From positions 1 to 25,341 of the forward strand of contig ONWP01000017.1 of assembly GCA_900321595.1 (NCBI GenBank): a DNA stretch of 25,341 bases. Reading direction: 5' to 3'. Positions within the stretch are counted from its first letter, which is position 1. Every line of letters starts with the position of its first letter. The notes below the pieces were generated by a model, which saw only the letters and a list, made by a program, of their open reading frames with translations, was not told the origin of the DNA and ran no database searches. This document shows positions 5,259 through 25,341 of the stretch, in pieces. The position numbers and the translations under genes were made by a program. Source of the stretch: an uncultured Eubacteriales bacterium. Lineage in GTDB: Bacteria > Bacillota > Clostridia > Oscillospirales > Acutalibacteraceae.

Positions 5259-5307
5259 CGCGTTTTATACCCTGAACGGACAAACAGCGAAAAAAGGAAG
5301 TGGTCAA

Positions 5308-6825: not shown

Positions 6826-6838
6826 CGCGCATTTTGAA

Positions 6839-6864
6839 GAGCAGTCCCGCGGGGCTGCTTTTTT
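6839..6864 (+). terminator. Rho-independent terminator
   Basis: Hairpin AGCAGTCCC-GC-GGGGCTGCT followed by a T run, just after the DUF4139 stop codon. Confidence 0.85.
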
Positions 6865-6882
6865 GTCTTGATTCTTCCGATA

Positions 6883-6911
6883 TTGACATATAACGGGCTT
6901 TGTGATACGAT
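6883..6911 (+). promoter_or_regulatory. Sigma70/SigA promoter for the aldo/keto reductase
   Basis: TTGACA at 6883-6888, 17-bp spacer, then TG-n-TACGAT at 6906-6911. Confidence 0.75.
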
Positions 6912-6951
6912 GAGGCGGAAAACGACCGGCAAAGAGGGGAGAGCGGATCCT

Positions 6952-7860: not shown

Positions 7861-7871
7861 CATTTAAAAGG

Positions 7872-7906
7872 AAAAAACGGCCTCGGGGACTGACCCCGGG
7901 GCCGTT
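7872..7906. terminator. Hairpin terminator between convergent genes, T-tract on the minus strand
   Basis: AACGGCCTCGGGG-ACTGA-CCCCGGGGCCGTT preceded by an A run. Confidence 0.75.
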
Positions 7907-7918
7907 GACGCGCTGTTG

Positions 7919-9175
7919 TCAGCTGATCGTCGGTTCCTGCGCGAAGGCGTCGCGCACCGCGTAGTACGCGGGCTTCGGATTGCCCTCGCCGTCCACGATG
8001 CCCCAGCCGGTCTCCACGGGACAGTCGCTCTGCCCGCAGACGTAGCAGTGCTCGGAGTCGTTCCACATATAGAGGAACGCGCCGATGACGAAGCCGCAGT
8101 TTTTGAGCTTCGGGATCAGGTCGGCGTAGAATTTCGCCTGTCCCTCGGGGGAGTGCTCATAGCCGCGCAGACCGGTGCCCTCGGCCAGCTCCCGGTAGAT
8201 GTGGTTCGCGTACTCGCCGTCGAAGACCAGCGACGCGACCTCCGCGTCGGAGCGGTCCGCGTAGTTTTCGTTGATCTCCTCCGCCAGATCCTTCGGCAGC
8301 CTGTTCACAAAGGTCCAGATGTCCGCTCTGGCGGCCGCTTCGCTCTCAAAGCCGTAGGAGCGCAGGATCTCGGTCTTTTCCGCCTGCGTCTTGGGCTCGC
8401 CGAAGCCGATGTAGCCGAATTCCTGCATGATGATCGGCTTGTGGGTGACCAGCCGCACCAGCTGCAGGATCGCCATGTGCAGGTTGATGTCCTTGACGAT
8501 GTTCTCGAAGGAGCCCAGATACAGGTCCACGCCGATGTAATCGCAGTATTTGTGGTACTTCATCATGCGGAAGGGCAGCTGCAGGAAGCCGAGCCCGCCG
8601 AGATTGTAGCCCAGCAGCACGTCCCCGCGCAGGGGGTACATGGCCTCGAGCTGCACGCCGATGAACTTCGCGGCCTCATCCATGGTCAGGGGCAGGGTGA
8701 AGCGGTCCACGCCCATCTCGTTGGTCACCTGGATGCCGCCGGCGATGCCCTGCAGGTCCTCGATGATGAACCGCGCGATGGCCTGGATGCCGGGGATATC
8801 CGCCTCATTGCGGATATCCAGCCCGATCGCCCGGTAGTCGTCGGGGTAGGGGGTGACCGTCATGAGCTTGATGCCGTGGTCGGCGTACGCCTGCATTTCG
8901 GCCTTCCAGCGCTCCCAGCGGTCGGTCACATTGCCGTCCGCGTCAACGGGCATGGGCATATCCTCGCGGATCCAGCCGATGTTCGCGCCGGTGATCATGT
9001 CGTACTCGGGCTCTGGGTGGCAGACGCCGGCCATGAAGCCGCCGGCCTTTTCCAGCGCTTCGGGGATCGCCTTGTCGAATCGCGCCGTCAGGTCGAGCGT
9101 CATCACGCAGGCGACCGGCGTGATGATCGACAGCAGGACGGCGAGGAATTTGGTAAGAAATTTCGGCAGATGCAT
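7919..9175 (-). CDS. Secreted clan GH-A-like (TIM-barrel) glycoside hydrolase, family unassigned
   Basis: Hydrophobic N-terminal signal or anchor. Candidate acid/base QVTNEMG, DYIGVDLY, candidate nucleophile IIMQEFGY, and the C-terminal WGIVDGEGNPKPAYY typical of GH39/GH53/GH5-like enzymes. RBS GGAGGGA. Confidence 0.65.
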   Translation of the reverse strand: MHLPKFLTKFLAVLLSIITPVACVMTLDLTARFDKAIPEALEKAGGFMAGVCHPEPEYDMITGANIGWIREDMPMPVDADGNVTDRWERWKAEMQAYADHGIKLMTVTPYPDDYRAIGLDIRNEADIPGIQAIARFIIEDLQGIAGGIQVTNEMGVDRFTLPLTMDEAAKFIGVQLEAMYPLRGDVLLGYNLGGLGFLQLPFRMMKYHKYCDYIGVDLYLGSFENIVKDINLHMAILQLVRLVTHKPIIMQEFGYIGFGEPKTQAEKTEILRSYGFESEAAARADIWTFVNRLPKDLAEEINENYADRSDAEVASLVFDGEYANHIYRELAEGTGLRGYEHSPEGQAKFYADLIPKLKNCGFVIGAFLYMWNDSEHCYVCGQSDCPVETGWGIVDGEGNPKPAYYAVRDAFAQEPTIS

Positions 9176-9196
9176 AATCGTCCCTCCGTTCGCGTT

Positions 9197-10546
9197 TTAT
9201 CGCATTTTCCCGACGCGGTGCCAGAGCACGTCAGCCTTGAGCACCCAGGCGTAGTAGCCCGCGGTCGTCGGGGGAAAGTCCAGATAGTGCGCTTTGATCT
9301 CCAGCGCGTTTTTGAGCGCCCGGGCGGCGGCCTTCAGCGTATCGCGCGAGAGCCGTCCTGTCGCGATCCCCTTCAGGAACGCCGTCAGGACCGGCATGAC
9401 CATCGCCGGGGTGAGCTTTGGCTCCGCTCCGGCGGAGACGGCGTCCATCAGGCCGTCCGTGATCGCGCCGCTCGCGAAGACGTATTTGAATTCGTCAAAG
9501 GTCGCCGCGTTGATCACGCCGGTGAGCAGCGCCCGCAGAAAGGCGAAATCAGCGCCCTGCGCGTCGTTGTATCGCTTGTTGACGTTCCAGAGCAGTTCCT
9601 TCGACGCGTCGCCGAGCGTCAGCGCCCGGTCGAGCGCGTCAGCGGCGATTCGGATCTGCGTCATGGCGGAGGTGACGCCCTCGCCGCTCTCGGATTTCGT
9701 CAGGCAGGCGGCGTCGCCGCAGGCGATGAACCGGTCCGCGACCAGCGTGTAGGGCGGCCGCCGGTAGGGTGTGGCGCCGCGCTCAACGCGCTCGACCGTA
9801 TGCGTCGGCAGATCGATGTGACGGCACATGTCCTCGTAGATCTCGTCGCAGTGTTCGAAGCTCGTCACCGCGCCCACGCCGATGATCGCGCCCTTCGGAT
9901 CGGCGCAGGGGGCGATCCAGCTCTTGTAGTACGCCCAGAAGGTGGAGCCGTCCAGATAATCCTTCTCGTCGAGGAGCTTCACGTAGCGCAGCGTCACGTA
10001 GAACATATCGTCGCCGCCCAGCGGGAACGTCTCCATACCGTAGGTCGGGGGCAGCTGCGTCCTGCCGACGGCCGGGATGCCGGAGCAGTCGACGACGCAC
10101 CGGGCGTTCAGGCTCGTGCGCCGGCCGCGCCTTTTATAGCGCAGACCGCTGATCTTCCCGTCCTCAAAGAGGAAGCTGTCAAAGCTCGCGTCGAAGACGA
10201 ATTTCGCGCCGGCCTTTTCAGCCGCTTCGACGAGTAAAAGCGTGTATTCGCGCAGATGCAGTCCCACGGTCGGGTTCATCGCCGTCACGGGGCTGCGGTT
10301 TTCTGGATCCGCGTTGCGGTTCTTCGCGAACTCGAACGCCCACGCCGGGTCGCCCTCGACGGGGCGGGGGATCTCGAAGCGCGCGAAATCCCGCTCCGCG
10401 ATGTGGAAAATGTCGTATTTCGTGCCGATCTTGTCGCGGGGCAGCGCGTCGATCACCGTGACGGCGTACCCCCTGCGCGCCATCTCCCGGGCGAAATACG
10501 CTCCGCTCGTGCCGCCGCCGATGATCGCAACGTCGCAGACAGCCAA
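9197..10546 (-). CDS. FAD-dependent oxidoreductase, geranylgeranyl reductase/FixC-like
   Basis: Rossmann motif DVAIIGGGTSG, VVDCSG and IACGDAACLTKSESGEGVTSAM are present. The start is placed at TTG 10546 (RBS GGGAGG; alternative ATG 10564) because a consensus promoter lies at 10578-10606. The provided start at 10783 runs through that promoter. Confidence 0.8.
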   Translation of the reverse strand: MAVCDVAIIGGGTSGAYFAREMARRGYAVTVIDALPRDKIGTKYDIFHIAERDFARFEIPRPVEGDPAWAFEFAKNRNADPENRSPVTAMNPTVGLHLREYTLLLVEAAEKAGAKFVFDASFDSFLFEDGKISGLRYKRRGRRTSLNARCVVDCSGIPAVGRTQLPPTYGMETFPLGGDDMFYVTLRYVKLLDEKDYLDGSTFWAYYKSWIAPCADPKGAIIGVGAVTSFEHCDEIYEDMCRHIDLPTHTVERVERGATPYRRPPYTLVADRFIACGDAACLTKSESGEGVTSAMTQIRIAADALDRALTLGDASKELLWNVNKRYNDAQGADFAFLRALLTGVINAATFDEFKYVFASGAITDGLMDAVSAGAEPKLTPAMVMPVLTAFLKGIATGRLSRDTLKAAARALKNALEIKAHYLDFPPTTAGYYAWVLKADVLWHRVGKMR

Positions 10547-10577
10547 GGGAACCCCTCCCTTCATAATTCTGCTTTCA

Positions 10578-10606
10578 ATTATATGCGGAAGACGCAAAAG
10601 TGTCAA
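10578..10606 (-). promoter_or_regulatory. Consensus SigA promoter for the flavoprotein-GH pair
   Basis: Reverse complement reads TTGACA (10606-10601), 17-bp spacer, TATAAT (10583-10578). Confidence 0.85.
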
Positions 10607-10710
10607 CGAATTACGGGACAAAAAATGTAAATATTGTGTAAAATCGTCCCGCGTCAGGAGGAACCGTTCTGAATTGTGGTGTTCGTATTGCGAATACGGA
10701 AAGTTTTGTA

Positions 10711-10755
10711 AATATTCTGATACGAAATAAAAAAGTATGAAAATTGTGATAAAAT
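10711..10755 (+). promoter_or_regulatory. Extended -10 promoter with a conserved upstream 24-bp motif, for hydrolase 1
   Basis: TG-a-TAAAAT with the -10 at 10750-10755 and no -35 consensus. AATATTCTGATACGAAATAAAAAA at 10711-10734 recurs upstream of the paralog. Confidence 0.6.
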
Positions 10756-10806
10756 GACAATATAACATTATGGTCGGTTTCATCCGGTGAAACGGGAGGT
10801 CTTTTT

Positions 10807-12393
10807 GTGAGTCATATAAAAAAGGCGATCGGCGTCCTGCTGACGATGGCGCTGCTGATCCTGCCGCTGGGCGCCGCGTTCCCGGCGCAGGCCGCGTCAG
10901 ACGCGCCGATCCTGCGCATCCGCGGGGAGAATACGCTGTTCTGGGCTTCGCCCGAAGGCGTCGCGACGCCGCTGTATGACGACGGGGAATACGTCTCCGC
11001 CGTCGCGAAGGCCGCGCTGCCGCTGGCGATCCCGGCGCTGATCACCGGCAACTGGGACAAGTGGAGCGACGCCGCCTGGGAGCAGCTCAAGCCCGCCTAC
11101 GATCACTATAAGCCCGACGCCGAGGGCAACGTCCCGGCGGACACGTGGATCAATTTCAGCGAGCTCAACAGCGTGCCTTACCGGATGTCCTGTGACACCG
11201 TGGAGTTTTCGTATGAATTCTTCCCGGATATGCGCGTTTCGCCGATGGACGCGGCGGACGAGATCCACGAGACGGTCGAGCGCATCAAGGCGCTGCACGG
11301 CGCAGACAAGATCACGCTGATCGGCCAGTGCATGGGCAACGCCTATATGCTCGCCTACCTGAACAAGTACGAGGCTCCGCGCGGCTACGCGGGGATCGAG
11401 GCGGTCGTCTATTCCACCACCACCGCCAACGGTCTGCCCGACGAGGATCGGCTGTTCAGCGGTACGATCCGGTTGGAGCTGGCATCGGCTTACCGCGCGC
11501 TGGGCAACTACGAGCTGCCGGCGGAGCTTGCCGGCATGGCGGGCGGCATGCTGCTCGACCTCATTTACGATACGCTCGATCTGGCCTATCAGGCGAAGGG
11601 GCTCGGCAAGCTGACGGTCGGCGTCGTGCAGAACGTCTACGACAAGGTCAAGGTCCCGTTCATCGCGCGCGTCCTGCGCGAGTACTACGGCCGCTGCGGC
11701 GGATACGTCAGCTCCGTGACTGAGCACTACGAGGAATATAAGGACTACGTCTTCCCGACGGAGCAGGACCGGCAGACCTACGAGACGCAGATCGCGAAAT
11801 TTGACGACTATTACTACAACGTCCAGCAGCGCCAGCCGGAGATGATCCGCGACATGCAGGCCGCCGGCGTCACCGTCGCCTCCATCGCCGAGTACGGCGT
11901 GCAGAACGGCTATCCCACCGGCGGCGAGGCCGCGCTGGAGACCAGCGACGGGCGCGTGCCCGTGAGTCGAAGCTCCTTCGGCGCGACGGGCTGCCGCATC
12001 GGGCAGACGCTGCCGGAGGACTACGTCGCCTCGCGCGTTTCCTACGGCTTTGCGGATTATATCTCGCCGGACGGGCAGGTCGACGCGAGCACCGGGCTGC
12101 TGCCGGAAACGACCTGGTACATCAAAAACGCGCCGCACGCCTTCGACAGGCCGGTGATGGCGCTGGCCACGGCGATCGTCAAAACGCCCGGCGCGACGGT
12201 CGAGCGGCTGCGCGAACAGGGCTGGGCGCGCTTCCTGTGGTACACCGACGGGGACACGCCGCTGCGGCCGCTCACGGCGGAGGACACCGACGCGGCGCAG
12301 GTCGTGACGCCGAAGACGCCCAACGCGTTCCGGGCGTTCTTCCGCTGGATCAAAACGCTGTTCCGGCTTATCGGACAGTTGCTCAAGCGCTGA
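10807..12393 (+). CDS. Secreted LCAT/lipase-like alpha/beta hydrolase, Cys nucleophile (paralog 1)
   Basis: GTG start with RBS GGGAGG and a Sec signal peptide ending PAQA. Elbow ITLIGQCMGN (11323-11337), SDGRVP and NAPH are present, plus an amphipathic C-terminal tail. Confidence 0.75.
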   Translation: MSHIKKAIGVLLTMALLILPLGAAFPAQAASDAPILRIRGENTLFWASPEGVATPLYDDGEYVSAVAKAALPLAIPALITGNWDKWSDAAWEQLKPAYDHYKPDAEGNVPADTWINFSELNSVPYRMSCDTVEFSYEFFPDMRVSPMDAADEIHETVERIKALHGADKITLIGQCMGNAYMLAYLNKYEAPRGYAGIEAVVYSTTTANGLPDEDRLFSGTIRLELASAYRALGNYELPAELAGMAGGMLLDLIYDTLDLAYQAKGLGKLTVGVVQNVYDKVKVPFIARVLREYYGRCGGYVSSVTEHYEEYKDYVFPTEQDRQTYETQIAKFDDYYYNVQQRQPEMIRDMQAAGVTVASIAEYGVQNGYPTGGEAALETSDGRVPVSRSSFGATGCRIGQTLPEDYVASRVSYGFADYISPDGQVDASTGLLPETTWYIKNAPHAFDRPVMALATAIVKTPGATVERLREQGWARFLWYTDGDTPLRPLTAEDTDAAQVVTPKTPNAFRAFFRWIKTLFRLIGQLLKR

Positions 12394-12410
12394 AACGGAG
12401 CATACAATAC

Positions 12411-12436
12411 GGGGCTGTCTCAAACGAGGCAGCCTC
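12411..12436 (+). terminator. Palindromic hairpin after hydrolase 1 (terminator or REP-like)
   Basis: GGGGCTGTCTC-AAAC-GAGGCAGCCTC followed by ATTTT. Confidence 0.55.
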
Positions 12437-12618
12437 ATTTTCGCGGGGCCGACGCTGTGCGGCAGATCTGTCCGCGGCGCGAATGAAAGCTCGAAGCGCA
12501 CGGGCTTTTGCTTTTTTTCATTCGGCGAGCCGTGTTCGGGGTGCTTTTTGTGCTTTTCGACGGGTGACGAATACTTGATGTTTATTTCTTTCAAACATAT
12601 ATTAAACTTATTGTACTG

Positions 12619-12648
12619 TTGACATTGTTTGCGTTTTTTTGTTAAATA
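12619..12648 (+). promoter_or_regulatory. Probable promoter upstream of the small ORF
   Basis: TTGACA at 12619-12624 followed by an imperfect -10 region (TGTTAAATA, 12640-12648) in AT-rich DNA. Confidence 0.5.
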
Positions 12649-12656
12649 ACAATTAA

Positions 12657-12929
12657 GTGGTGAACAAGTCCCTGCGGGAGGGGCGGCTGGTGCGGCTCGA
12701 GGATCCGGACGACGTCGTCCCGAAGCTGAGCATGGCGATGTTCACGGCAAGAGCCGACTATACCGGCGCGACCAAGCGCACCGCCGGCTACGGCGTTGAC
12801 AAGAGCGGCGCGCACAACATCAGCTACAAGCGGACCGATGTGTGGGGCGCCTTTGACGCGCTGGGGACCGAAAACGGCGGCGCGGTACTGCGTCTGAACC
12901 TCGCCTCGCTCGTCACGCTCGATATCTGA
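12657..12929 (+). CDS. Small hypothetical protein (90 aa from GTG 12657 or 79 aa from GTG 12690), possibly a gene remnant
   Basis: High-GC3 codon usage contrasts with the AT-rich flanks. GGGAGG at 12676-12681 lies 8 nt before the in-frame GTG at 12690. A clean terminator follows the stop. Confidence 0.55.
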   Translation: MVNKSLREGRLVRLEDPDDVVPKLSMAMFTARADYTGATKRTAGYGVDKSGAHNISYKRTDVWGAFDALGTENGGAVLRLNLASLVTLDI

Positions 12930-12933
12930 AAAT

Positions 12934-12960
12934 AAGCGGCTTCGGCCGCTTTTTCTTTTT
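12934..12960 (+). terminator. Rho-independent terminator with a UUCG tetraloop
   Basis: AAGCGGC-TTCG-GCCGCTT followed by T-rich sequence. Confidence 0.9.
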
Positions 12961-12975
12961 TGAATAATCGCATTT

Positions 12976-13020
12976 AATATTCTGATATAAAATAAAAAAC
13001 TGTGATAACCATGCTATAAT
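12976..13020 (+). promoter_or_regulatory. Extended -10 promoter with the conserved upstream 24-bp motif, for hydrolase 2
   Basis: TG-c-TATAAT with the -10 at 13015-13020 and no -35 consensus. AATATTCTGATATAAAATAAAAAA lies at 12976-12999. Confidence 0.7.
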
Positions 13021-13104
13021 CCTATTGAGAACGATCTGTACCCCGCGTATTTCTTTACCGGATCACGGATCGTTTTTGAGCCTTGCGCGAAAGGGAATGG
13101 GATT

Positions 13105-14694
13105 ATGAGGAAAATTACAAAGATCACGGCCTTCTGTCTCGCGTTCGTCCTGTTTGTCCTGACCTTCGGCGCGGCGTTCGCCGCGGGAGAGCGGGCGCAG
13201 AATATCCCGGTGCTGCGGATCCACGGCGACAGCGATATCTATTTCATCGGCGACGACGGCGAGCGGCATACGCTGTACGACGACGGCGAATACGTATCCG
13301 CCATCGTGAAGGCCGCGCTGCCCTACGCGTTCCCGGCGCTGGTCACCGGCAATTGGGAAAAGTGGAGCGAAAAGGCCTGGGAGCAGCTGCAGCCGGCTTA
13401 TACGCACATCAAACCCGACGCCGAAGGAAACGTCCCGCCGGAGTCCTGGTCGGAGGACAAGATCCCGGCGGAGGAATACGCGTTCCGCGACACGCGCGGG
13501 GTTGACGAGGCGTACGAGCTGTTCCCGGATATGCGGATCTCCCCGATGGACGAGGCGGATTACATCCGCGACGTGATCGAACGGATCAAGGCCGTCACGG
13601 GACACGACAAAATCATCCTGATCGGACAGTGCCTCGGCAACGCGTACATGCTCGCCTATCTGGAAAAGTACGAGGCGCCCCGGAACTACGCCGGGATCGA
13701 ATCGGTCCTGATCTCGACGACCTCCGCGAACGGGCTCGACCGGGAGGACCGGCTCTTCTCCGGCAATATCGAGTTCGAGCTGGAATCGACTTACCGGACG
13801 ATGCATAAATTCGGGTATCCGGGCGCCCTTTACGACATCGCCGACGGCGTGCTGATCGATCTCATCTACGATACGCTCGACGTCGTTTACAGGAGTCATT
13901 TCGGCAAAAAAGTGACCATGGCTGTCGTCAACGACGTTTACAACAAGGTCAAGGGGCCGTTCATCTCAAAGATCCTGCGGGAGCATTACGGCCGCTGCGG
14001 CGGATTCGTCGCGCAGGTGCTCGACCATTATGAGGACTACCGGGATTACGTGTTCCCGACCGACGCGGACAAGGAGACCTACGCCGTCCAGCTCGCGAAA
14101 TTCGACGACTATTATTACAACGTCGGTTCGCGCCAGACGGAGATCATCGGCGCGCTGCAGGACGCCGGCGTGCATGTATCCTGCCTCGTTGAATACGGCT
14201 TCCAGTCGAAGTATCCCACGGCGGGCACCGCCGCGCTGGAGACGACCGACGGACGCGTGCCTGTCAGCCGCGGCTCCTTCGGCGCAGTCGGCAGGAACAT
14301 CGGCGATCCGTTCCCGGAGGAATACGTCGCCGCGCGCGCTGCCGAGGGCACGGACGGTTACATCTCTCCGGACCGCATGGTGGACGCGCTGCCCGGTCTG
14401 CTGCCGGAATCGACCTGGTACATCAAGAACGCGGATCACCGGTTCGACAGCGCCGTCATGACGCTCGCCACCGCGATCGTCCGGACGCCGGATGCCACCG
14501 TGGACAAGCTGGAGGCACAGGGCTTCACCCGTTTTATGAACTACACGGGCGCGGCCGCGCCGCTGACGCCGTTGCAGGCGGTCGAAGCCAACGACGAGGC
14601 GCCCATCGTGCCGCAGTCAAAGACCTCGATCGGCGCGTTCTTCCGCTGGCTGCGCACATTCTTCCGTCTGATCGGCGCGCTGATCCGCAAATAA
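13105..14694 (+). CDS. Secreted LCAT/lipase-like alpha/beta hydrolase, Cys nucleophile (paralog 2)
   Basis: Signal peptide ending AAFA. Elbow IILIGQCLGN (13624-13638), TDGRVP and NADH are present. It shares long blocks with paralog 1 (LYDDGEYVSA, ALVTGNWEKWS, FPDMRISPMD, YGRCGG, KFDDYYYNV, LLPESTWYIKNA). Confidence 0.75.
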   Translation: MRKITKITAFCLAFVLFVLTFGAAFAAGERAQNIPVLRIHGDSDIYFIGDDGERHTLYDDGEYVSAIVKAALPYAFPALVTGNWEKWSEKAWEQLQPAYTHIKPDAEGNVPPESWSEDKIPAEEYAFRDTRGVDEAYELFPDMRISPMDEADYIRDVIERIKAVTGHDKIILIGQCLGNAYMLAYLEKYEAPRNYAGIESVLISTTSANGLDREDRLFSGNIEFELESTYRTMHKFGYPGALYDIADGVLIDLIYDTLDVVYRSHFGKKVTMAVVNDVYNKVKGPFISKILREHYGRCGGFVAQVLDHYEDYRDYVFPTDADKETYAVQLAKFDDYYYNVGSRQTEIIGALQDAGVHVSCLVEYGFQSKYPTAGTAALETTDGRVPVSRGSFGAVGRNIGDPFPEEYVAARAAEGTDGYISPDRMVDALPGLLPESTWYIKNADHRFDSAVMTLATAIVRTPDATVDKLEAQGFTRFMNYTGAAAPLTPLQAVEANDEAPIVPQSKTSIGAFFRWLRTFFRLIGALIRK

Positions 14695-18447: not shown

Positions 18448-18484
18448 CCCGAAATTCCGACTTCCGAAATCCGCATTCCGCAAT
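18448..18484. repeat. Tandem heptamer repeat array B (TTCCGMA-like, about 5 units)
   Basis: Sequence reads cccgaaa ttccgac ttccgaa atccgca ttccgca. Confidence 0.85.
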
Positions 18485-18518
18485 AAAAAACGAGCGGCGT
18501 CGGCCGCTCGTTTTATTT
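18483..18518. terminator. Bidirectional Rho-independent terminator
   Basis: AATAAAAAACGAGCGGC-GTCG-GCCGCTCGTTTTATTT lies between convergent genes and abuts the LytTR gene stop. Confidence 0.9.
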
Positions 18519-19292
18519 GCCGTCCGCCATCCATTTGTCGATGTCGGCTTTGATCTCATGATACCGTTTCGCGGGGATCGGCAGCCGCGTGCCGTCGGTC
18601 AGGATGACCTCCCGGCCTGAGATGGCGAGCACGCAGCGCAGGTTGACGATGTAGCTGGCGTGGCAGCGGTAATAATAATCCGGCAGCAGCGGCTCGATGT
18701 CCTTGAGCAGCATGCGCACGGGGTAGACGTCCCGGTCGGTGTGCACCTCGCAGAGCACCTTTTTGCCGCCGACGATATACCGGATGGAATCCTCCCGCAG
18801 ATAGACGGTGACCCGGTCCGGGCCGGGGAACGACAGTCGGCGGACTGGCATGACCTCCGCCGGCGCGGGCGCCGACGCGGGAGGGCGCGTTTTCGCGCGC
18901 GTCGGAGGCAGATTCGTCACATGAATGAAGGGACATCGCCAGATGACCTGTCCGTCCCGGTCGCGCATGCGCTGACCGCTGATGATCATGCGCTGGGCGT
19001 GCTCCCGCCGGCCGTCCGGGCGATCGACCCAGATGCGGTACGAGGCGACCATCAGGTAGTTGCTCGGCCCGTGGGTCAGAAGCCGGGTGCTGATGCCCGA
19101 CACGTTGTACCGCAGGGCGGTGTCCTGCGCGCGGTAGTTTTCGAGCAGCGCGTCCTTGCCGATGATCTGCTCACCGGCGCGGGGGCCGTACCAGATGACA
19201 TTTTCGTCCAGATAATCCAGCAGGGCGCCATAGTCTCCCGCGTAGAAGGAGACGATGGCGTCCGTAACGTGTTTCTCAAATTCGGTGATCAT
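18513..19292 (-). CDS. NTF2/SnoaL-like domain fused to a LytTR DNA-binding domain
   Basis: N-terminal AIVSFYAGDYGALLDYLDENVIWYGP...IIGKD resembles SnoaL, followed by a Pro/Ala linker. The C-terminal DSIRYI...YYRCHASYIVNL...LPIPAKRY is LytTR. No receiver domain is present. Confidence 0.8.
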   Translation of the reverse strand: MITEFEKHVTDAIVSFYAGDYGALLDYLDENVIWYGPRAGEQIIGKDALLENYRAQDTALRYNVSGISTRLLTHGPSNYLMVASYRIWVDRPDGRREHAQRMIISGQRMRDRDGQVIWRCPFIHVTNLPPTRAKTRPPASAPAPAEVMPVRRLSFPGPDRVTVYLREDSIRYIVGGKKVLCEVHTDRDVYPVRMLLKDIEPLLPDYYYRCHASYIVNLRCVLAISGREVILTDGTRLPIPAKRYHEIKADIDKWMADGK

Positions 19293-19301
19293 GCGGGGCG
19301 A

Positions 19302-19550
19302 TCAGTCCTCGTCCTGATACTCCCGGATCACTTCGATGACGTCGGCGAGCGTCTCGATGCGGCCGACCTCGCGGTCGGGGATCTCCGTCTCGAACCGGTC
19401 CTCGATGGCGACAGCCAGATTGACCAGCTCCAGCGAATTGAGCCCCAGATCGGAGCGCATATTCGTCTCGAGCGTGATGTCCTCCGGTTTCAGCTCCACA
19501 AATTCGGTGATGACCTCTCTGAGCGCTTGCAGCATGGTTTCGTTATCCAT
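19302..19550 (-). CDS. Acyl/peptidyl carrier protein
   Basis: 82 aa and acidic. DLGLNSLELVNL places the phosphopantetheine site at Ser39 (codon 19434-19436); AIEDRFETEIPD is also typical. Confidence 0.93.
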   Translation of the reverse strand: MDNETMLQALREVITEFVELKPEDITLETNMRSDLGLNSLELVNLAVAIEDRFETEIPDREVGRIETLADVIEVIREYQDED

Positions 19551-19565
19551 GGTCGTTCTCCTCTC

Positions 19566-21317
19566 TTACTCGGCGTAGCGGTCGATGACCTTCTGCCGGA
19601 TGATTTTACGGGTGGAATTCTTTTCGAACTCCTCATAGGAAATGTGCACGTCGGCGATCTTCTTGTAGCGGGCGAAGCGCTTGTTGAGCTCGGCCAGATC
19701 CTTTTTCGCCTTCTCGAGCAGCTCGCTGTCGGACAGGTCGGGGAATTCGGCCTTGTCGATCCAGACGGCGACGGCGATGATCTTTTCCCGTTTGTCGAGG
19801 ATGGTCTTGTGCGTCTCGAACGCCACGACCTCCTTCATGTAGTGGATGCCGTCCTGCACGGCGAATTCCAGCTCCTCGGGGAAAATGTTCTCGCCGTTGT
19901 CCAGGATGATCAGGTTTTTCTTGCGGCCGCTGATGAACAGCTCGCCGTCGGGGGTCATCCGGCCGTAGTCGCCGGTCATGAACCAGCCGTCCTCTGTGAA
20001 GGACGCCTTCGTCGCGGCCTCATCCTTGTAGTAGCCGCGGGTGACGTTGTCGCCCTTGATCTGGATCTCGCCGATGCCGTCCTCGTCCGGGTCCGCGATG
20101 CGCACGGCGGTCTTCGGGAAGGGATAGCCCGCGCTGGTGGGATCCTCGTCGGCGTGCAGATTCAGCGTTACGGTTGGCGCCGCCTCGGTCAGACCGTAGC
20201 CGTTGTAGACGCAGAAGCCGAAATCGCCCATGCCCTGCACGTAGTCCGCCCGGCTGGGCGCGCCGCCGCAGGAGAATGTCATGCCCTTGCGGTCGTTGAA
20301 TTTGCCGGTAATGATCTTGAAGAGCTTCGGCCGCAGGTCGATGCCCTTTTTGCGCAGGGCGTTGCTCACCTGCATGAGCTTGCGCAGCACGTCGGCTCTG
20401 CCGCCATCCTCCGCGGTGCGCCAGATGCCGTCCCAGAAGCCCTCGAGCACCAGCGGCACGGCGGCCATGGCGTCGGGCTTGTACTCAAACAGGTTCTTCT
20501 GAATGTTTTTCAGGCTGTCGTTGATATAGATGACGGCGTTCATGTAGGTCGAGGTGAAGATATTGCAGCTCAGCTCATAGACGTGATTCATCGGCAGCAG
20601 CGAGAACGACGTGTACTCCGTCGGAATGGTGCTGATGATCCCGTCCACGTTGGTCGTGAAATTCTTGTGGGAAAGCATGACGCCCTTGTTCGCGCCGGTG
20701 GTGCCGCTGGTGAAGAAGATCGCGGCCAGATCCTCCCGGTCGAGCGCGGCCGCGGTGAACCGGTCGTCGCCCTGCGCCAGAAGCGCTTCGCCCTTTTTCA
20801 CGAGGTCGTCGAACGCGATCAGCCGCTCGTCCTTATAGGATCTGTACATGGAAAAGCCGTATTTGAAATCCGGATTGGCCTCCATGTGCTTCGTCACGGT
20901 CTTTTTGTAGCTCTTGGCGAAGAAAACGGCGTCGCAGTCGGCCTTGTCCATGAGCATGCCGAGCGTTTCGTCGTCGAGCTCCTTATCCAGCGGGACGGCC
21001 ACGCCGACGCCGCAGGAGATCGCGAAGAACGACACGATCCATTCGTAGCTGTTCTCGCCCAGCAGGGCGATGTGGCTGCCCTTGAAGCCCAGATCGATGA
21101 GCGCCGTTCCGACGGCGTTGATATTCGACACGAGCTGTCCCAGCGTGTAGGAGACGTTTTCGCCGGCGACCTTCTCCACGACCGCGAGCCTGTCGCCGAA
21201 GTGGCGGTACGCGCGGTCGTAGATATCGCGCAGCGTGACCAGATGCCCTTCGCGCAGCACGTCCTTGCGGAGCTTGTCCATGCGCTGCATCTCTTTTTTT
21301 GTCAGTTTCGTCGTCAT
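19566..21317 (-). CDS. Long-chain fatty acyl-AMP/CoA ligase-type adenylation enzyme
   Basis: Motifs FFTSGTTGANKG, LLPMNH, NGYGLTE, FMTGDYG, GRKKNLIILDNGENIFPEELE and the C-terminal KNSTRKI are present. Confidence 0.93.
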   Translation of the reverse strand: MTTKLTKKEMQRMDKLRKDVLREGHLVTLRDIYDRAYRHFGDRLAVVEKVAGENVSYTLGQLVSNINAVGTALIDLGFKGSHIALLGENSYEWIVSFFAISCGVGVAVPLDKELDDETLGMLMDKADCDAVFFAKSYKKTVTKHMEANPDFKYGFSMYRSYKDERLIAFDDLVKKGEALLAQGDDRFTAAALDREDLAAIFFTSGTTGANKGVMLSHKNFTTNVDGIISTIPTEYTSFSLLPMNHVYELSCNIFTSTYMNAVIYINDSLKNIQKNLFEYKPDAMAAVPLVLEGFWDGIWRTAEDGGRADVLRKLMQVSNALRKKGIDLRPKLFKIITGKFNDRKGMTFSCGGAPSRADYVQGMGDFGFCVYNGYGLTEAAPTVTLNLHADEDPTSAGYPFPKTAVRIADPDEDGIGEIQIKGDNVTRGYYKDEAATKASFTEDGWFMTGDYGRMTPDGELFISGRKKNLIILDNGENIFPEELEFAVQDGIHYMKEVVAFETHKTILDKREKIIAVAVWIDKAEFPDLSDSELLEKAKKDLAELNKRFARYKKIADVHISYEEFEKNSTRKIIRQKVIDRYAE

Positions 21318-21335
21318 CGAAAGCCTCCCTGCCGG

Positions 21336-22739
21336 TTACTTTGCCAGCGTGTTCACATCGACGAGCTGATCCATGATCTCATCCATCGTCAGCGCCGGGT
21401 TGTCGATGCCCAGCAGAACCGCCTTGACACAGTTGTCGTGCAGGGTGTCGATGACGGCAGGGCTGATGCGCGCGATGCGGTACAGGTAGTTGAACCGGAT
21501 GCCGTGATCGGTCACGTCCGGATAGGTGAAGGTGTACAGCGGCATGCAGTAGCGCCCCATGTTGTAGCCCTTGAAGTCGAAGCGCAGCGCCTCGTCCTCG
21601 ATCAGCGGCAGCGGCAGCCAGGTGTACATCATGAAGGACGGCGCCTGGAACATGGAAAGATTATAGATCTTGCGCTCCATGGCGTAGCTGGTCAGGTAGG
21701 GATAATTCATATGGCGGTACAGCGTGTTGCGCACGCCGTCGAGCGTCTTCAGACCCTCGGCGAAGGTCGCCGTGCCGGGGATGATGGCGCGCACGGCCAG
21801 CGGCTGGGTCATGCAGCCGCCCATCTTTTTCTGCTTATAGGTGACGCGGCGGGAGCACAGCTGCAGGCTGAAGGTGTCGTCTGTGCGGTAATTGCCCAGC
21901 GACGCGTGGGCGCGGTAGCCCAGCTCGAAAAGCGTCTCGGGCGAGACCTTTTGCTCGAGGCAGAATTTGAAGATCTTCTCGCTGGTCTCCGGGTCGATCT
22001 TTTTGTACGCCATCGCGGCCTTGTCGTGCAGCGCGTCGTACGCCGCCGGGATGCGCTCCTCGGGATCCTTTTTGCGCGCCTTGTCCAGCAGGTCGTGGCC
22101 GGTGATGCTGGCGTGGAAGGGCTTGCCGTCCTTGAGCCAGAAGTCGCGGTAGAAGTCCTCGTCGCGCTTCATCTTCTTCTCGTCGGCCAGGTAGTCCAGA
22201 TCCTTGTTGACCTGCTCCTCGAAGGAGTAGAGGGGCTCGGGCAGCTCCGCGCCGTCGACGAGCGCCTTGTAGACCTGGATCAGATCCAGATAGAAGACGG
22301 CCACAGCGTGGGCGTCCATGATCAGGTGGCTCACGTTCAGATAGATCCCGCTGCCGCCCTTGCAGTCGTAGAAAAAGCGCAACCGGAAGGTCTCGCCGTT
22401 GAAGATGCGGACGGTCCGCTGCGCGTCCGCTGCGAAATAAGCCTCCTGCTCCTCCTCGGTGGCGAAGCGCAGCACCGGCACGCGCGGGGCCTTGACCTCG
22501 TCGAGGAAATACTGCTTCCAGCCGTCTTTTTCCTTTAAGAAGCGGATGCGCAGACAGTCGTTGCGCTTGACCTCCTCCTCGAACGCCTTCTGCAGTACGG
22601 AGAAGTCAAGCTTTACCTTGAAGGTAACGCTTGACGGGATCTGCATCACGTTTTTATGGATGCTGTACTTGAGCATGGTCGCCATGCTCTCCTGTGAGGG
22701 GACGAGCGGGTAGCAGGTCTGTGTGATCGTCTGTTTCAT
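21336..22739 (-). CDS. Stand-alone NRPS-type condensation domain protein
   Basis: 467 aa. YPLVPSQES, VKRNDCLRIRF and the active-site variant SHLIMDA (22311-22331, from HHxxxDG) are present. It is adjacent to the adenylation enzyme and carrier protein genes. Confidence 0.88.
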   Translation of the reverse strand: MKQTITQTCYPLVPSQESMATMLKYSIHKNVMQIPSSVTFKVKLDFSVLQKAFEEEVKRNDCLRIRFLKEKDGWKQYFLDEVKAPRVPVLRFATEEEQEAYFAADAQRTVRIFNGETFRLRFFYDCKGGSGIYLNVSHLIMDAHAVAVFYLDLIQVYKALVDGAELPEPLYSFEEQVNKDLDYLADEKKMKRDEDFYRDFWLKDGKPFHASITGHDLLDKARKKDPEERIPAAYDALHDKAAMAYKKIDPETSEKIFKFCLEQKVSPETLFELGYRAHASLGNYRTDDTFSLQLCSRRVTYKQKKMGGCMTQPLAVRAIIPGTATFAEGLKTLDGVRNTLYRHMNYPYLTSYAMERKIYNLSMFQAPSFMMYTWLPLPLIEDEALRFDFKGYNMGRYCMPLYTFTYPDVTDHGIRFNYLYRIARISPAVIDTLHDNCVKAVLLGIDNPALTMDEIMDQLVDVNTLAK

Positions 22740-22795
22740 TGCGAAGCCTCCTGAATACGTTAGTTTATCTCACCGTATTTATTATTCGTTTGTAA

Positions 22796-23683
22796 TCAGT
22801 TCCCGGACGGAAATTCGCGCCGGATCATGCCGATCTGGGCGTAGGTGTTGGTAAGGAACGCCTGTTTCGGGTAATACGCCGCGATCTCTGGCGTGAAGTA
22901 GTCCTCGGCGATGGCGGCGGTCACGGCCTCGTCGGAGAGGCCCTCGGCGCTCATGCGCAGGATCAGCTCCTTCCGGGCGACGGCGGCGTTCCGGCTGCGG
23001 GTGAGGAACAGCCGCACGGTCTCTCTGCCGTACATGGGACCGTAGTGGGGGATGAGCATATCGTCGATCTCCATGGACAGCACCCGGTCGAGGGTGTCGA
23101 CCGTCGCGGCGTAGCTGGATACGAAGCCCGGATTGACGCTCACGTCGCTGGCCCAGGTGCCGGTCGTCTCGCAGGTGATGAGGAACCGCGCCTCCGGGCA
23201 GTACGCGCCCACGCAGCACTTCGTGTGGCCGGGCATCGCGAGCACGGCGAATTCGTATCCGCCCAGTTCGAGCGTATCCCCCTCGCCGACGGTCCGGTCC
23301 AGCCGCAGCGCGCCGGTGCGGTCCTCGTCCGGCGCGAGGCCGAAGCCCTGCGCGGCGGACACGTCCAGCTCGCGCATGAGGCGGCGGGCGCTTTCCTTGG
23401 CGAAGATCTCGCCGCAGCGCGCGGAGCCGACCACCTCGATGTCCGGGAACGCCTCCTTGATATATACGCTGCCCAGCGCGTGGTCGTAGTGCGAGTGCGT
23501 CAGCAGCAGCCTTGACGGCGTCCTGCCGTCAAGCGCGGCGCGCAGGTCGTCCAGCATCTCCCGGCCGCAGAAGCCGAAGCCGCTGTCAACCAGCAGCGCG
23601 TCGTCGCCGCAGGCGACCATAGCGCCCTCGCCGCCGACGGCGCCGCGAAATAACCTGATCTCAAACGGAAATTTCCCGCTCAT
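22796..23683 (-). CDS. MBL-fold metallo-hydrolase
   Basis: Motifs LLVDSG, LTHSHYDHALG (HxHxDH), PGHT and IPHYG are present. RBS GGGGAGGA. Confidence 0.9.
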   Translation of the reverse strand: MSGKFPFEIRLFRGAVGGEGAMVACGDDALLVDSGFGFCGREMLDDLRAALDGRTPSRLLLTHSHYDHALGSVYIKEAFPDIEVVGSARCGEIFAKESARRLMRELDVSAAQGFGLAPDEDRTGALRLDRTVGEGDTLELGGYEFAVLAMPGHTKCCVGAYCPEARFLITCETTGTWASDVSVNPGFVSSYAATVDTLDRVLSMEIDDMLIPHYGPMYGRETVRLFLTRSRNAAVARKELILRMSAEGLSDEAVTAAIAEDYFTPEIAAYYPKQAFLTNTYAQIGMIRREFPSGN

Positions 23684-23730
23684 CGTTCCTCCCCGGCCGC
23701 GATCGGCCGCATCTGTCCATGATCCTCATT

Positions 23731-23759
23731 ATTATAAAGGATGCCGGAAGAAAAATCAA
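23731..23759 (-). promoter_or_regulatory. SigA promoter heading the MBL-C-A-T-LytTR operon
   Basis: Reverse complement reads TTGATT (23759-23754), 17-bp spacer, TATAAT (23736-23731). Confidence 0.8.
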
Positions 23760-24081
23760 CCGTCAAATCAGCCCGGGTTGTCGGGCTGCGTCCGGGCGCG
23801 AGCCGGCGGTTTCCGACCGGCTGCTTCGGCGTCCTTCCGGTGAGATTTGCGATAATTCCAAGATGGCAACAAAATAATCGTCATTTTTAACAAGACGGGA
23901 ACCGTAAAATTGTGCAAACAGCAGAAATGCGGAAAAATCGAAAAAAAATCAAAAAAAACTGTCACAAATCGGACGAAAATGGAATATAGTATATAGGCGT
24001 GTATCCATGCCTGCTTTGGCGTGGAAAATAATGACGCTTGTAAGCACGATCCCAAACGATCAAACGAAAGGATGTCATGCA

Positions 24082-25341
24082 ATGAGAACAGGCAAACGAA
24101 CGAGAGCGTTTTTGGCTCTCCTTCTCTCCCTGGTGATGATCCTGTCCGTCGCGCCGCTGAGCGCTCTGGCCGATCTGAGCTTCGAACCCGACAAGCTCGA
24201 TCCGACCATGAAGCTCACCAGCAAGACGGATTACGCGCTTGCGCCGGGCATCACCGAATCCGCTATCATCACGCACGATCTGGACGGCTCCAATCAGGTT
24301 AAGAGCTGGGCTGTCGAGGTCGACCTGCAGAATTATCCCAGCACGCAGATCCTTGCCTCCTACAAGGACTACATGAACAATCTGGGACCTGCCCAGTGGG
24401 GCATGCAGAAGGTTCGCGATCAGGCCGCGAAGGCTGAAGCGTTCTATCAGGCGACTGATCCGAATTTCCGCGTTGTCGCTGCGACGAACGGCGATTTCTT
24501 CAACATGGGCAACGGCGCTCCCACGGGCACGTTCGTCATGAATACGAAGGTCTATAACGTCAACGAGGGCTGGCCGTACTTCGCCATCATGAAGGACGGC
24601 ACCGCTAAGATCGGTCAGGGCGACCTGAACCTTGACGACGCGAAGGAAGTCATCGGCGGCCCCGGCATCGTCATCAAGGACGGCGAGATCACCGACGTGG
24701 GACTTGACAGCAGCTACGGCGTCGATCCGCTGCCGCGTACCGCCGTCGGCATCAAGGCCAACGGCGCGGTCGTGCTGCTGGTGGCTGACGGCCGTCAGGC
24801 GCCCGTCTCCAACGGTCAGACCTGGAAGATGATGGCTGAAGAGCTGCTGGCCATGGGCTGCGTGGACGCGCTGGGTCTGGACGGCGGCGGCTCCACCACC
24901 ATGGTGACGCGTCATGAGGGAACCGACACCCTTGAGCTGGCGAACAGCCCCTCCGACGGCGTGGAGCGTACCGTTTCCTCCGCGATCCTCGTCTGCTCCA
25001 AGGCTGCGGCCGACGGCGTGTTCGATCACGCCTCCGTCGAGCCCAAGGGCGAGATCTTCACCCCCGGCAGCGCCGTGACGCTGACGGCGACCGGCGCGGA
25101 CGCCTCCGGCAACCCCGCCGACCTGCCTGAGAACGGTGCGTTCGAGGTGGACGATCCCGAGATGGGTTCGATCAGCGGCAGCACCTTCACCGCGCTCGAG
25201 AAAGAGGGCGAGGTGAAGATCAACTACGTGGTGGACGGCGCCGTCAAGGGCAGCACCGCCTTTGAGATCCGCACCCCCGACAAGATCACCTTCAACTCCG
25301 ACGAGGAATCCCTCGGCTTCGAGGAGGAGACCGACTTCGGC
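24082..25341 (+). CDS. Secreted phosphodiester glycosidase (NAGPA) family protein, 3'-truncated by the window edge
   Basis: Absent from the ORF track because it is open-ended. It translates as MRTGKRTRAFLALLLSLVMILSVAPLSALA (signal peptide), then VVAATNGDFFN, PRTAVGIKANG, VADGRQAPVSNG and LDGGGSTTM, followed by an Ig-like segment. RBS AAAGGA. Confidence 0.9.
   Translation, partial: MRTGKRTRAFLALLLSLVMILSVAPLSALADLSFEPDKLDPTMKLTSKTDYALAPGITESAIITHDLDGSNQVKSWAVEVDLQNYPSTQILASYKDYMNNLGPAQWGMQKVRDQAAKAEAFYQATDPNFRVVAATNGDFFNMGNGAPTGTFVMNTKVYNVNEGWPYFAIMKDGTAKIGQGDLNLDDAKEVIGGPGIVIKDGEITDVGLDSSYGVDPLPRTAVGIKANGAVVLLVADGRQAPVSNGQTWKMMAEELLAMGCVDALGLDGGGSTTMVTRHEGTDTLELANSPSDGVERTVSSAILVCSKAAADGVFDHASVEPKGEIFTPGSAVTLTATGADASGNPADLPENGAFEVDDPEMGSISGSTFTALEKEGEVKINYVVDGAVKGSTAFEIRTPDKITFNSDEESLGFEEETDFG

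What the first reader, a model, noticed from the sequence alone, without database searches (positions are those of the whole stretch)
18513..23759. NRPS-like fatty-acid-amide operon with a built-in hydrolase and ligand-sensing regulator (MBL-C-A-T-SnoaL/LytTR)
Seen: one consensus promoter (23731-23759), five co-oriented genes with gaps of 56, 18, 15 and 9 bp, and one terminator. Established: gut Clostridia carry stand-alone C, T and acyl-adenylation gene sets that join fatty acids to amines to make GPCR-active fatty acid amides (Chang et al. 2021, Nat Microbiol; cited from memory). Inference: this is such a pathway with an unknown acyl and amine pair. The flanking MBL hydrolase and SnoaL-LytTR regulator suggest a synthesis-turnover-sensing circuit, possibly signalling. 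This is the strongest candidate for a new system in the window. No PPTase or exporter gene is present here.
Basis: partly seen in the sequence, partly recalled or inferred. Interest (0 to 1): 0.8.

Follow-up and report, generated by a model that had tools for sequence, protein, structure and literature searches.

The report
Fatty-acid-amide-type C-A-T operon with extras
A rumen-type gut bacterium carries a small operon of the known "fatty acid amide" kind (separate condensation, acyl-activating and carrier proteins), here joined to a PqsE-like metallo-hydrolase and an unusual receiver-less LytTR regulator, which makes it a new variant of a known pathway rather than a new system.

Summary
Five co-oriented minus-strand genes lie at 18513-23683 with gaps of 56, 18, 15 and 9 bp. 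A 10/12 sigma-70 promoter sits upstream and a strong hairpin terminator downstream.

The C-A-T core belongs to the Clostridial fatty-acid-amide (FAA) kind:
- The free-standing C protein's best solved relative is OaaC (PDB 12KH), at E 6e-42 over its full length. The next hit is at 2.6e-6.
- It carries the non-canonical motif SHLIMDA.
- C-A-T order is kept in 48 of 80 related Oscillospirales loci.

The two extra genes are not family-wide but are not chance neighbours either:
- **Regulator:** it marks one well-supported five-species clade. Elsewhere its family sits beside FadD-like ligase genes.
- **MBL:** it recurs (71% identity, same promoter) upstream of a C gene in a second species. It was not found in 20 same-genus genomes.

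Its predicted fold matches the PqsE thioesterase (TM 0.8).

The regulator is an NTF2-like domain plus LytTR, with no receiver domain. Ligand sensing is inferred only. The acyl and amine substrates remain unknown.

Verdict: a new variant of a known kind, of moderate interest. The scan had notes only on this same window, none on other DNA.

The parts
23731..23759 (-). Sigma-70-type promoter (-35 TTGATT, 17 nt spacer, -10 TATAAT)
   Evidence: One search gives a 10/12 match. The -35 block (CGGTTGATTTTT) and -10 block (ATCCTnTATAATAA) are conserved upstream of the 71%-identical MBL gene in contig L101.
22796..23683 (-). PqsE-like MBL-fold metallo-hydrolase (295 aa); metal ligands H63, H65, D67, H68, H153, E172, H213
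   Evidence: Pfam Lactamase_B 3e-17. Best PDB sequence hits are PqsE at 2e-8, then glyoxalase II. The metal ligands are invariant in 29 homologues. The AF2 model has pLDDT 93. The top 17 Foldseek hits are all PqsE at TM 0.80-0.82 over about 290 columns, and the next best has TM 0.66 or less.
21336..22739 (-). Free-standing FAA-type condensation protein (467 aa), motif S137-H138-L-I-M-D142-A143
   Evidence: Pfam Condensation 2e-26. PDB 12KH (OaaC) matches at E 6e-42 over residues 8-457, and the next hit is the PvdL starter C at 2.6e-6. H138, D142 and A143 are invariant and S137 nearly so in 15 homologues.
19566..21317 (-). Free-standing ANL acyl-adenylating enzyme (583 aa), fatty-acyl-ligase-like
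   Evidence: Pfam AMP-binding 2e-57 plus AMP-binding_C_3. The best NCBIfam match is long-chain-fatty-acid-CoA ligase at 207 bits. The amino-acid adenylation model scores only 119 bits against a cut-off of 317. Core motifs TSGTTGxxKG, GYGLTE and TGD are present.
19302..19550 (-). Acyl carrier protein (82 aa), phosphopantetheine serine S39 in LGLNSL
   Evidence: Pfam PP-binding 3e-13. NCBIfam ACP models score 1e-17. S39 is invariant in 15 homologues.
18513..19292 (-). Receiver-less transcription factor: NTF2-like domain (1-128), disordered linker (132-148), LytTR DNA-binding domain (152-256)
   Evidence: Pfam LytTR 2e-12; DUF4440 and SnoaL_2 are sub-threshold. The AF2 model has pLDDT 86. The C-terminal half matches the AgrA LytTR domain at TM 0.85 and rmsd 1.9 A. 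The N-terminal half matches NTF2-like folds such as the CaMKII hub, Saro_3538 and Caci_6494.
18481..18514 (-). Intrinsic terminator (GC-rich hairpin with 4-nt loop, then a U-run), overlapping the stop codon
   Evidence: Sequence read. RNA fold gives -25 kcal/mol and z -3.64.

Best explanation
This is an accessory operon of a ruminant-gut Acutalibacteraceae-type bacterium. It encodes a minimal NRPS-like acyl-amide pathway of the Clostridial FAA kind.

Proposed mechanism:
- The ACP is primed by the genome's AcpS (inferred).
- The ANL enzyme adenylates a carboxylic acid, most likely a fatty acid, and loads it on the ACP (inferred from family and from conserved adjacency).
- The free-standing C protein condenses acyl-S-ACP with a freely diffusing amine and releases an N-acyl amide (inferred from homology to OaaC).
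- The first gene encodes a PqsE-like di-metal hydrolase. It most likely cleaves thioesters, acting either as a proofreading type-II-thioesterase-like enzyme on mis-acylated ACP or on acyl-CoA, so tuning flux (inferred from fold).
- The last gene encodes an NTF2-like-LytTR one-component regulator. It probably controls the operon's promoter, perhaps in response to a fatty-acid-like ligand (inferred from its recurrent pairing with fatty-acid-activating genes).

The lineage ancestor probably carried MBL, a 6-TM membrane protein, C, A, T and the regulator. This genome has lost the membrane protein gene.
For: OaaC (12KH) is the outstanding best solved relative of C over its full length. The motif SHLIMDA fits the FAA-type xHxxxD(S/A/G) described in PMC13310621.

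In 80 species-level loci, 48 are C-A-T and 16 to 17 are C-T, always in the same order and strand. There is only one carrier protein, so the acceptor must be free.

For the MBL: the fold equals PqsE at TM 0.8, far above other MBLs, and the metal site is intact. Contig L101 carries an MBL of 71% identity with the same promoter. It is followed by a 202-aa membrane protein and then the first 15 codons of a C gene, MKQSTSHTLYPLVPS, against MKQTITQTCYPLVPS in the window. That membrane protein is 51% identical to the gene directly upstream of C-A-T-R in hRUG903. The MBL was not found in 20 same-genus genomes, so it is accessory, like the cluster itself, which is present in 2 of 21.

For the regulator: regulator-bearing loci form one clade on the C tree with support 100/98. 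Relatives of 37-45% identity lie next to FadD-like ligase genes in five further contexts.

Contigs from RNA libraries bridge the C/A and A/T/R junctions. AcpS is present in the genome.
Against: No product, substrate or activity is known. Identity to OaaC is only about 30%. The first motif residue is Ser, not Asp or His. I made no tree with other C subtypes.

The MBL is only 20% identical to PqsE, and the wider MBL family (37-39% identity) is scattered in unrelated contexts. No RNA contig bridges the MBL/C junction. One RNA-library contig lies upstream of the predicted promoter, and DNA carry-over cannot be excluded.

NTF2-like domains can be pure oligomerisation modules, and the best N-terminal fold matches are CaMKII hubs. 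No convincing LytTR-type direct repeat was found at the promoter. The genome is 71% complete, so a PPTase or exporter elsewhere cannot be judged.
Confidence: 0.6

Rival explanations
1. The MBL is an amidase that degrades the N-acyl amide product (turnover). The NTF2-like domain senses that product. Together they form a synthesis-turnover-sensing signalling loop.
For: The genes share one operon with one promoter and one terminator. Some MBL-fold enzymes hydrolyse amides or lactones; there are weak NCBIfam hits to AidB lactonase and B3 lactamases. NTF2-like pockets often bind hydrophobic ligands (general knowledge).
Against: The fold match is specifically to PqsE, a thioesterase. Lactamases and lactonases score far lower. 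Regulator relatives occur with FadD-like genes and no C gene, so the pathway product cannot be the family's general ligand. Making and destroying a product from one transcript is futile without further control.
Confidence: 0.12
2. The MBL supplies or tailors a substrate rather than acting on thioesters. For example, it might open a lactam or ester to release the amine acceptor, or hydrolyse a host or dietary conjugate to free the fatty acid.
For: The MBL is the first gene of the operon, and the arrangement is conserved in a second species. A characterised FAA pathway uses an omega-amino acid acceptor, 5-aminovalerate in OAA. Secreted lipase-like genes lie nearby in the window.
Against: There is no direct evidence. 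The protein has no signal peptide features noted, and its fold is closest to an acyl-CoA thioesterase.
Confidence: 0.13
3. The MBL and/or the regulator are functionally unrelated neighbours, and only C-A-T is a pathway. The product may also not be a classic fatty acid amide; it could be an ester or an acylated cell-envelope component.
For: None of the 80 related loci has an MBL adjacent to C, and only 3 of 80 have the regulator. The wider MBL family is monocistronic in varied contexts. The C protein is only about 30% identical to OaaC.
Against: A second species keeps MBL, the membrane gene and C with the same promoter. The MBL is absent from same-genus genomes that lack the cluster. The regulator start lies 9 bp after the ACP stop, and the pairing is kept across a clade whose C proteins are only 47-61% identical.
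Confidence: 0.15

Closest known systems
OAA pathway of Coprococcus eutactus (OaaA / OaaACP / OaaC; Chang et al. 2021, as described in PMC13310621; OaaC structure PDB 12KH)
   Same: It has three free-standing proteins: an ANL fatty-acid-activating enzyme, an ACP and a condensation protein of about 465 aa. It has a single carrier protein, so the acceptor is a free amine. The catalytic motif is non-canonical, with the second His and the Asp conserved and Ser or Ala after the Asp. The window's C aligns with OaaC end to end at E 6e-42.
   Different: Identity is about 30%, and the motif starts with Ser rather than Asp or His. The host is an Oscillospirales (Acutalibacteraceae-like) bacterium from ruminant guts, not a human Lachnospiraceae. 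The substrates are unknown. The operon adds a PqsE-like MBL and an NTF2-like-LytTR regulator.
ebf / ecf FAA clusters of Enterocloster bolteae / clostridioformis (PMC10871352)
   Same: These are FAA-type clusters with stand-alone C, T and A plus accessory genes, including a 'predicted hydrolase'. A hydrolase inside an FAA cluster is therefore not new in itself.
   Different: ebf/ecf also encode a PPTase and an SCP2-like lipid-transfer protein and list the order C, T, A. The window has no PPTase or lipid-transfer gene, has the order C-A-T, and has a regulator. The paper's text does not give the fold of the ebf/ecf hydrolase, so equivalence to the MBL is untested.
PqsE of Pseudomonas aeruginosa (2-aminobenzoylacetyl-CoA thioesterase, MBL fold)
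   Same: It shares the full-length fold, including the C-terminal helical extension (TM 0.80-0.82). It has the HxHxDH motif plus distal His ligands. It is encoded inside a small-molecule biosynthetic operon that starts with an ANL enzyme and acyl-thioester chemistry.
   Different: Identity is only 20%. The bridging Asp is replaced by an invariant Glu (E172). There is no evidence of thioesterase activity or of PqsE's second role as a partner of a transcription factor (RhlR).
AgrA / ComE-type LytTR response regulators, and SnoaL_2-extended ECF sigma factors (sigma-J, SigG1; PMC5766207, PMC7730460)
   Same: The LytTR domain superposes on AgrA at rmsd 1.9 A. An NTF2/SnoaL-like domain fused to a transcription factor has precedents in ECF sigma factors.
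   Different: It has no receiver domain and no kinase gene nearby. The NTF2-like domain is N-terminal to a LytTR domain. I found no description of this fusion in the searched literature.

Membership tests
Clostridial FAA-type NRPS-like pathway (CFAA condensation clade) | Free-standing condensation protein of about 460 aa | tested here: met
   A 467-aa ORF covered by the Condensation domain alone.
Clostridial FAA-type NRPS-like pathway (CFAA condensation clade) | Non-canonical catalytic motif (D/H)HxxxD(S/A/G) with the second His and the Asp conserved | tested here: inconclusive
   The window reads S-H-L-I-M-D-A. His, Asp and Ala fit and are invariant in 15 homologues, but the first residue is Ser rather than Asp or His.
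Clostridial FAA-type NRPS-like pathway (CFAA condensation clade) | Closest characterised relative is an FAA C protein, with starter C domains next | tested here: met
   OaaC (12KH) matches at E 6e-42 over its full length. Next come PvdL at 2.6e-6 and CDA starter C at 7.6e-5.
Clostridial FAA-type NRPS-like pathway (CFAA condensation clade) | Adjacent free-standing fatty-acyl ANL enzyme and a single ACP, with no acceptor carrier | tested here: met
   C-A-T is conserved in 48 of 80 loci.
Clostridial FAA-type NRPS-like pathway (CFAA condensation clade) | Placement inside the FAA clade in a tree with all C subtypes | not tested
   No reference set of C subtypes was available as sequences. My tree covers only this family and a paralogue.
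Clostridial FAA-type NRPS-like pathway (CFAA condensation clade) | Product is an N-acyl amide of a free amine | not testable with these tools
   Needs reconstitution or heterologous expression with LC-MS.
PqsE-like MBL-fold thioesterase | MBL fold with an intact di-metal site | tested here: met
   H63, H65, D67, H68, H153 and H213 are invariant. E172 stands at the bridging position.
PqsE-like MBL-fold thioesterase | Global fold, including the C-terminal helical extension, matches PqsE better than other MBL classes | tested here: met
   The top 17 Foldseek hits are PqsE at TM 0.80-0.82. The next class has TM 0.66 or less.
PqsE-like MBL-fold thioesterase | Thioester hydrolysis | not testable with these tools
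   Needs an enzyme assay. The MBL-ACP complex prediction gave no verdict.
LytTR two-component response regulators (AgrA/ComE type) | LytTR DNA-binding domain | tested here: met
   Pfam 2e-12. TM 0.85 to AgrA.
LytTR two-component response regulators (AgrA/ComE type) | N-terminal receiver domain and a cognate histidine kinase | tested here: not met
   The N-terminal 128 residues fold as an NTF2-like cone, not a receiver. No kinase was found among the neighbouring genes examined. It is therefore not a member, but a LytTR one-component variant.

The most novel reading that the evidence does not exclude
The operon is a self-contained lipid-signal module. The NTF2-like-LytTR protein would be the founding example of a receiver-less, lipid-sensing class of LytTR regulators that control fatty-acid-activating genes in Oscillospirales. 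The PqsE-like MBL would, like PqsE, either gate the flux of the acyl-thioester intermediate or physically partner the regulator. This would give a Gram-positive gut analogue of the PqsE-RhlR arrangement, built around an N-acyl amide signal.
Probability: 0.12. Interest if true: 0.75.

Novelty: new variant of a known kind. Interest (0 to 1): 0.45.

Why it matters
FAA-type C-A-T pathways make host-active lipid amides in human gut Clostridia. This work shows a large, uncharacterised branch of the same enzyme family: 374 species-level genomes hit in one collection, mostly Acutalibacteraceae/Oscillospirales from ruminant and other animal guts.

Within that branch, a small clade has acquired two accessory genes. 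One is a PqsE-like hydrolase and the other a receiver-less NTF2-like-LytTR regulator.

If the regulator proves to be ligand-responsive, it would give a handle on when gut bacteria switch on such pathways. It would also provide a simple one-component sensor for fatty-acid-type molecules. If the MBL is a thioesterase acting on the ACP, it would be a new type of editing enzyme for minimal NRPS-like systems.

Tried and rejected
- **MBL-ACP complex prediction.** The score was 0.00, giving no verdict. It is no evidence either way.
- **Chang et al. 2021.** The paper is not held. Its content was taken second-hand from PMC13310621 and PMC10871352.
- **Membrane protein in this genome.** A search of the window's own genome for the 203-aa membrane protein of relatives found nothing (the genome is 71% complete).
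- **Membrane protein family.** It occurs in 33 of 401 family genomes, but outside the close relatives it is not next to MBL, C, A, T or the regulator. It adds nothing beyond the two linking contigs. Its Pfam search was empty, and the atlas gave only weak Frag1/DUF998-like leads.
- **Longer contigs.** Searches for longer contigs carrying the L101 arrangement, or the 61%-identical C (L103), found none.
- **LytTR-type binding sites.** A shared-word search for direct repeats in six upstream regions found only T-rich words around the -35 box. No operator is proposed.
- **Promoter scan.** Taken alone, the scan count is not above chance.
- **Rfam.** The search found no cis-regulatory RNA. One sub-threshold COG3860 hit inside the A gene is taken as chance.
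- **Literature.** A search for an NTF2/SnoaL-LytTR fusion found none.
- **MBL near C-only loci.** The MBL lying 3.5 kb upstream of C in six C-only loci is one closely related clade with shared synteny, so it is not counted as independent support.


Full report
**Observation**

Pfam assigns them as follows:
- Lactamase_B, Condensation, AMP-binding (plus AMP-binding_C_3) and PP-binding for the first four.
- LytTR for the last, preceded by sub-threshold DUF4440/SnoaL_2 matches.

The promoter TTGATT-17-TATAAT at 23759-23731 is the best of three promoter-like sites. That count is itself no more than chance. The terminator is a GC-rich hairpin followed by a U-run, starting at the stop codon of the last gene (-25 kcal/mol, z -3.6). 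Rfam finds no leader RNA.

**The C-A-T core**

Several results place the core in the FAA kind.
- *C protein.* Its best solved relative is PDB 12KH, at E 6e-42 over residues 8-457 of 467. The next hits are starter-type C domains at E 2.6e-6 and weaker. 12KH is OaaC of Coprococcus eutactus, the free-standing condensation enzyme of the oleoyl-aminovaleric-acid pathway.
- *Motif.* That paper describes FAA-type C domains as a clade nearest to starter C domains. Their motif is (D/H)HxxxD followed mostly by Ser or Ala. The window has S-H-L-I-M-D-A. His, Asp and Ala are invariant and Ser nearly invariant in 15 homologues.
- *A protein.* It scores best against long-chain-fatty-acid-CoA ligase models and poorly against the amino-acid adenylation model. 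It keeps the ANL core motifs.
- *Carrier protein.* It is ACP-like, with an invariant Ser in LGLNSL.
- *Priming.* One AcpS-type PPTase is encoded elsewhere in the genome.

The mechanism (fatty acid to acyl-AMP to acyl-S-ACP, then attack by a free amine in the C protein) is inferred from these homologies. It is not shown.

**Distribution**

The genome is a 2.19-Mb, 71%-complete MAG. Relatives of the C protein occur in 374 species-level genomes of one collection. These are mostly Acutalibacteraceae/Oscillospirales MAGs from goat, sheep, deer, horse, buffalo and human guts.

Among the 80 best loci, the arrangements are as follows:

| Arrangement | Loci |
|---|---|
| C-A-T (3 of them with the regulator) | 48 |
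| C-T | 16 to 17 |
| C alone | 10 |
| Cut by contig ends | the rest |

None of the 80 has an MBL gene adjacent to C. Within the window's genus, only 2 of 21 genomes have the cluster. In those two genomes its flanks differ, so it is an accessory element. The locus itself is present in sheep, bovine and other gut metagenomes from many studies.

**The regulator**

The AF2 model (pLDDT 86) has three parts:
- an NTF2-like cone at residues 1-128;
- a disordered Pro/Ala linker;
- a LytTR domain that superposes on AgrA (TM 0.85, rmsd 1.9 A).

The best N-terminal fold matches are CaMKII hub domains and bacterial NTF2-like proteins. There is no receiver domain and no kinase gene nearby.

On a maximum-likelihood tree of the C proteins, the loci that carry this regulator form one clade with support 100/98. 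The clade holds the window, hRUG903, RUI026 and AS08sgBPME_112, plus contig L103, whose 3' part is missing.

The regulator family is small. It has 14 clusters in the large protein collection and occurs in 12 of 401 family genomes. Outside the C-A-T clade its members recur beside FadD-like ligase genes:
- SDR, regulator, ligase in L096-L098.
- Regulator then ligase in G351.
- Ligase and regulator divergent in L100 and in three genomes of one genus.
- In G109, both contexts on one stretch: GH3-like, C, A, T, MFS transporter, regulator, FadD-like.

This recurrent pairing suggests that the family controls fatty-acid-activating genes. Whether the NTF2-like domain binds a ligand or only oligomerises is open.

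**The MBL**

All metal ligands are invariant in 29 homologues, with Glu at the bridging position. By sequence, the closest solved proteins are PqsE (2-aminobenzoylacetyl-CoA thioesterase) and then glyoxalase II. Both are thioester hydrolases. The AF2 model (pLDDT 93) matches PqsE over its full length at TM 0.80-0.82. All other MBL classes stay at 0.66 or below.

The wider family (37-39% identity, more than 1000 proteins) is scattered in unrelated contexts. The gene was not found in 20 same-genus genomes.

The decisive link comes from contig L101:
- It carries an MBL gene of 71% identity, preceded by the same -35 and -10 blocks.
- That gene overlaps by 4 bp a 202-aa six-TM protein.
- This is followed by the same ribosome-binding region and the first 15 codons of a C gene that match the window's C.
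- The membrane protein is 51% identical to the gene directly upstream of C-A-T-R in hRUG903.

Three species thus show MBL-C-A-T-R, MBL-Mem-C... and Mem-C-A-T-R. The simplest reading is an ancestral six-gene cluster with differential loss.

The MBL is therefore a real, if lineage-restricted, part of the cluster. Its fold argues for thioester rather than amide hydrolysis. An MBL-ACP complex prediction gave no verdict.

**Expression**

Short contigs from ruminant-gut RNA libraries match the locus at 95-100%. They bridge the C/A junction (21076-21376) and the A/T/R junctions (19154-19618). None bridges MBL/C. One contig covers 23682-23840, upstream of the predicted promoter. These are contigs of low depth from libraries that may hold DNA. 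They show presence only.

**Comparison and verdict**

The core is a new member of the known FAA kind. A hydrolase within an FAA cluster is already known from ebf/ecf. What is new is the particular pairing with a PqsE-like MBL and an NTF2-like-LytTR regulator. I found no description of that fusion. I rate this a new variant of a known kind, of moderate interest. The regulator family is the most promising lead.

Noticed in passing
G000 contig C362 (locus L135: 593-5502, minus strand): A second, distant NRPS-like set lies in the same genome: AMP-binding (539 aa), Condensation (485 aa, 24% identical to the window's C), a 75-aa ORF with no Pfam hit (possibly a carrier protein), and AMP-binding with the same C_3 tail (536 aa).
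   Followed up: partly
window 23935-23980 and 23747-23759: The word TTGATTTTT (minus strand) forms the -35 box and recurs about 190 bp upstream in a run of three direct repeats (AAATCGAAAAAAAAT family, spacing 11 and 20). The same word sits at the -35 of the related promoters in L101 and hRUG903. It might be an operator, or it may simply be T-rich sequence.
   Followed up: partly
window 23682-23840: A 159-nt contig from a bovine-gut RNA library covers the start of the MBL gene and 80 bp upstream of the predicted -35. This would not be expected if the promoter at 23731-23759 were the only start. It could be DNA carry-over or an upstream or antisense transcript.
   Followed up: no
L010 5360-5971 and L101 2029-2637: A roughly 200-aa six-TM protein with no Pfam family (weak Frag1/DUF998/DUF7103-like leads) sits between the MBL and C, or directly upstream of C, in the closest relatives. 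It is missing from the window. It is a candidate export or membrane-handling component of the cluster.
   Followed up: partly
L154 (G109:C12), 4784-13927: An extended cluster in a related species: GH3-family (acyl-acid amido synthetase-like) gene, C, A, T, MFS_2 transporter, NTF2-like-LytTR regulator, FadD-like ligase, all on one strand.
   Followed up: partly
L013, L020, L023, L025-L027, L030: One clade of C-only loci shares the synteny MBL (32% identical to the window's), aldo-keto reductase on the opposite strand, GDPD phosphodiesterase, a 374-aa unknown protein, then C. No A or T lies nearby.
   Followed up: no
window 24007-25341 (+) and L164 580-3138: A NAGPA-family phosphodiester glycosidase gene lies divergently upstream of the MBL gene. 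Another lies about 2 kb from an MBL homologue in Caproiciproducens sp. NJN-50. This is probably coincidence.
   Followed up: no
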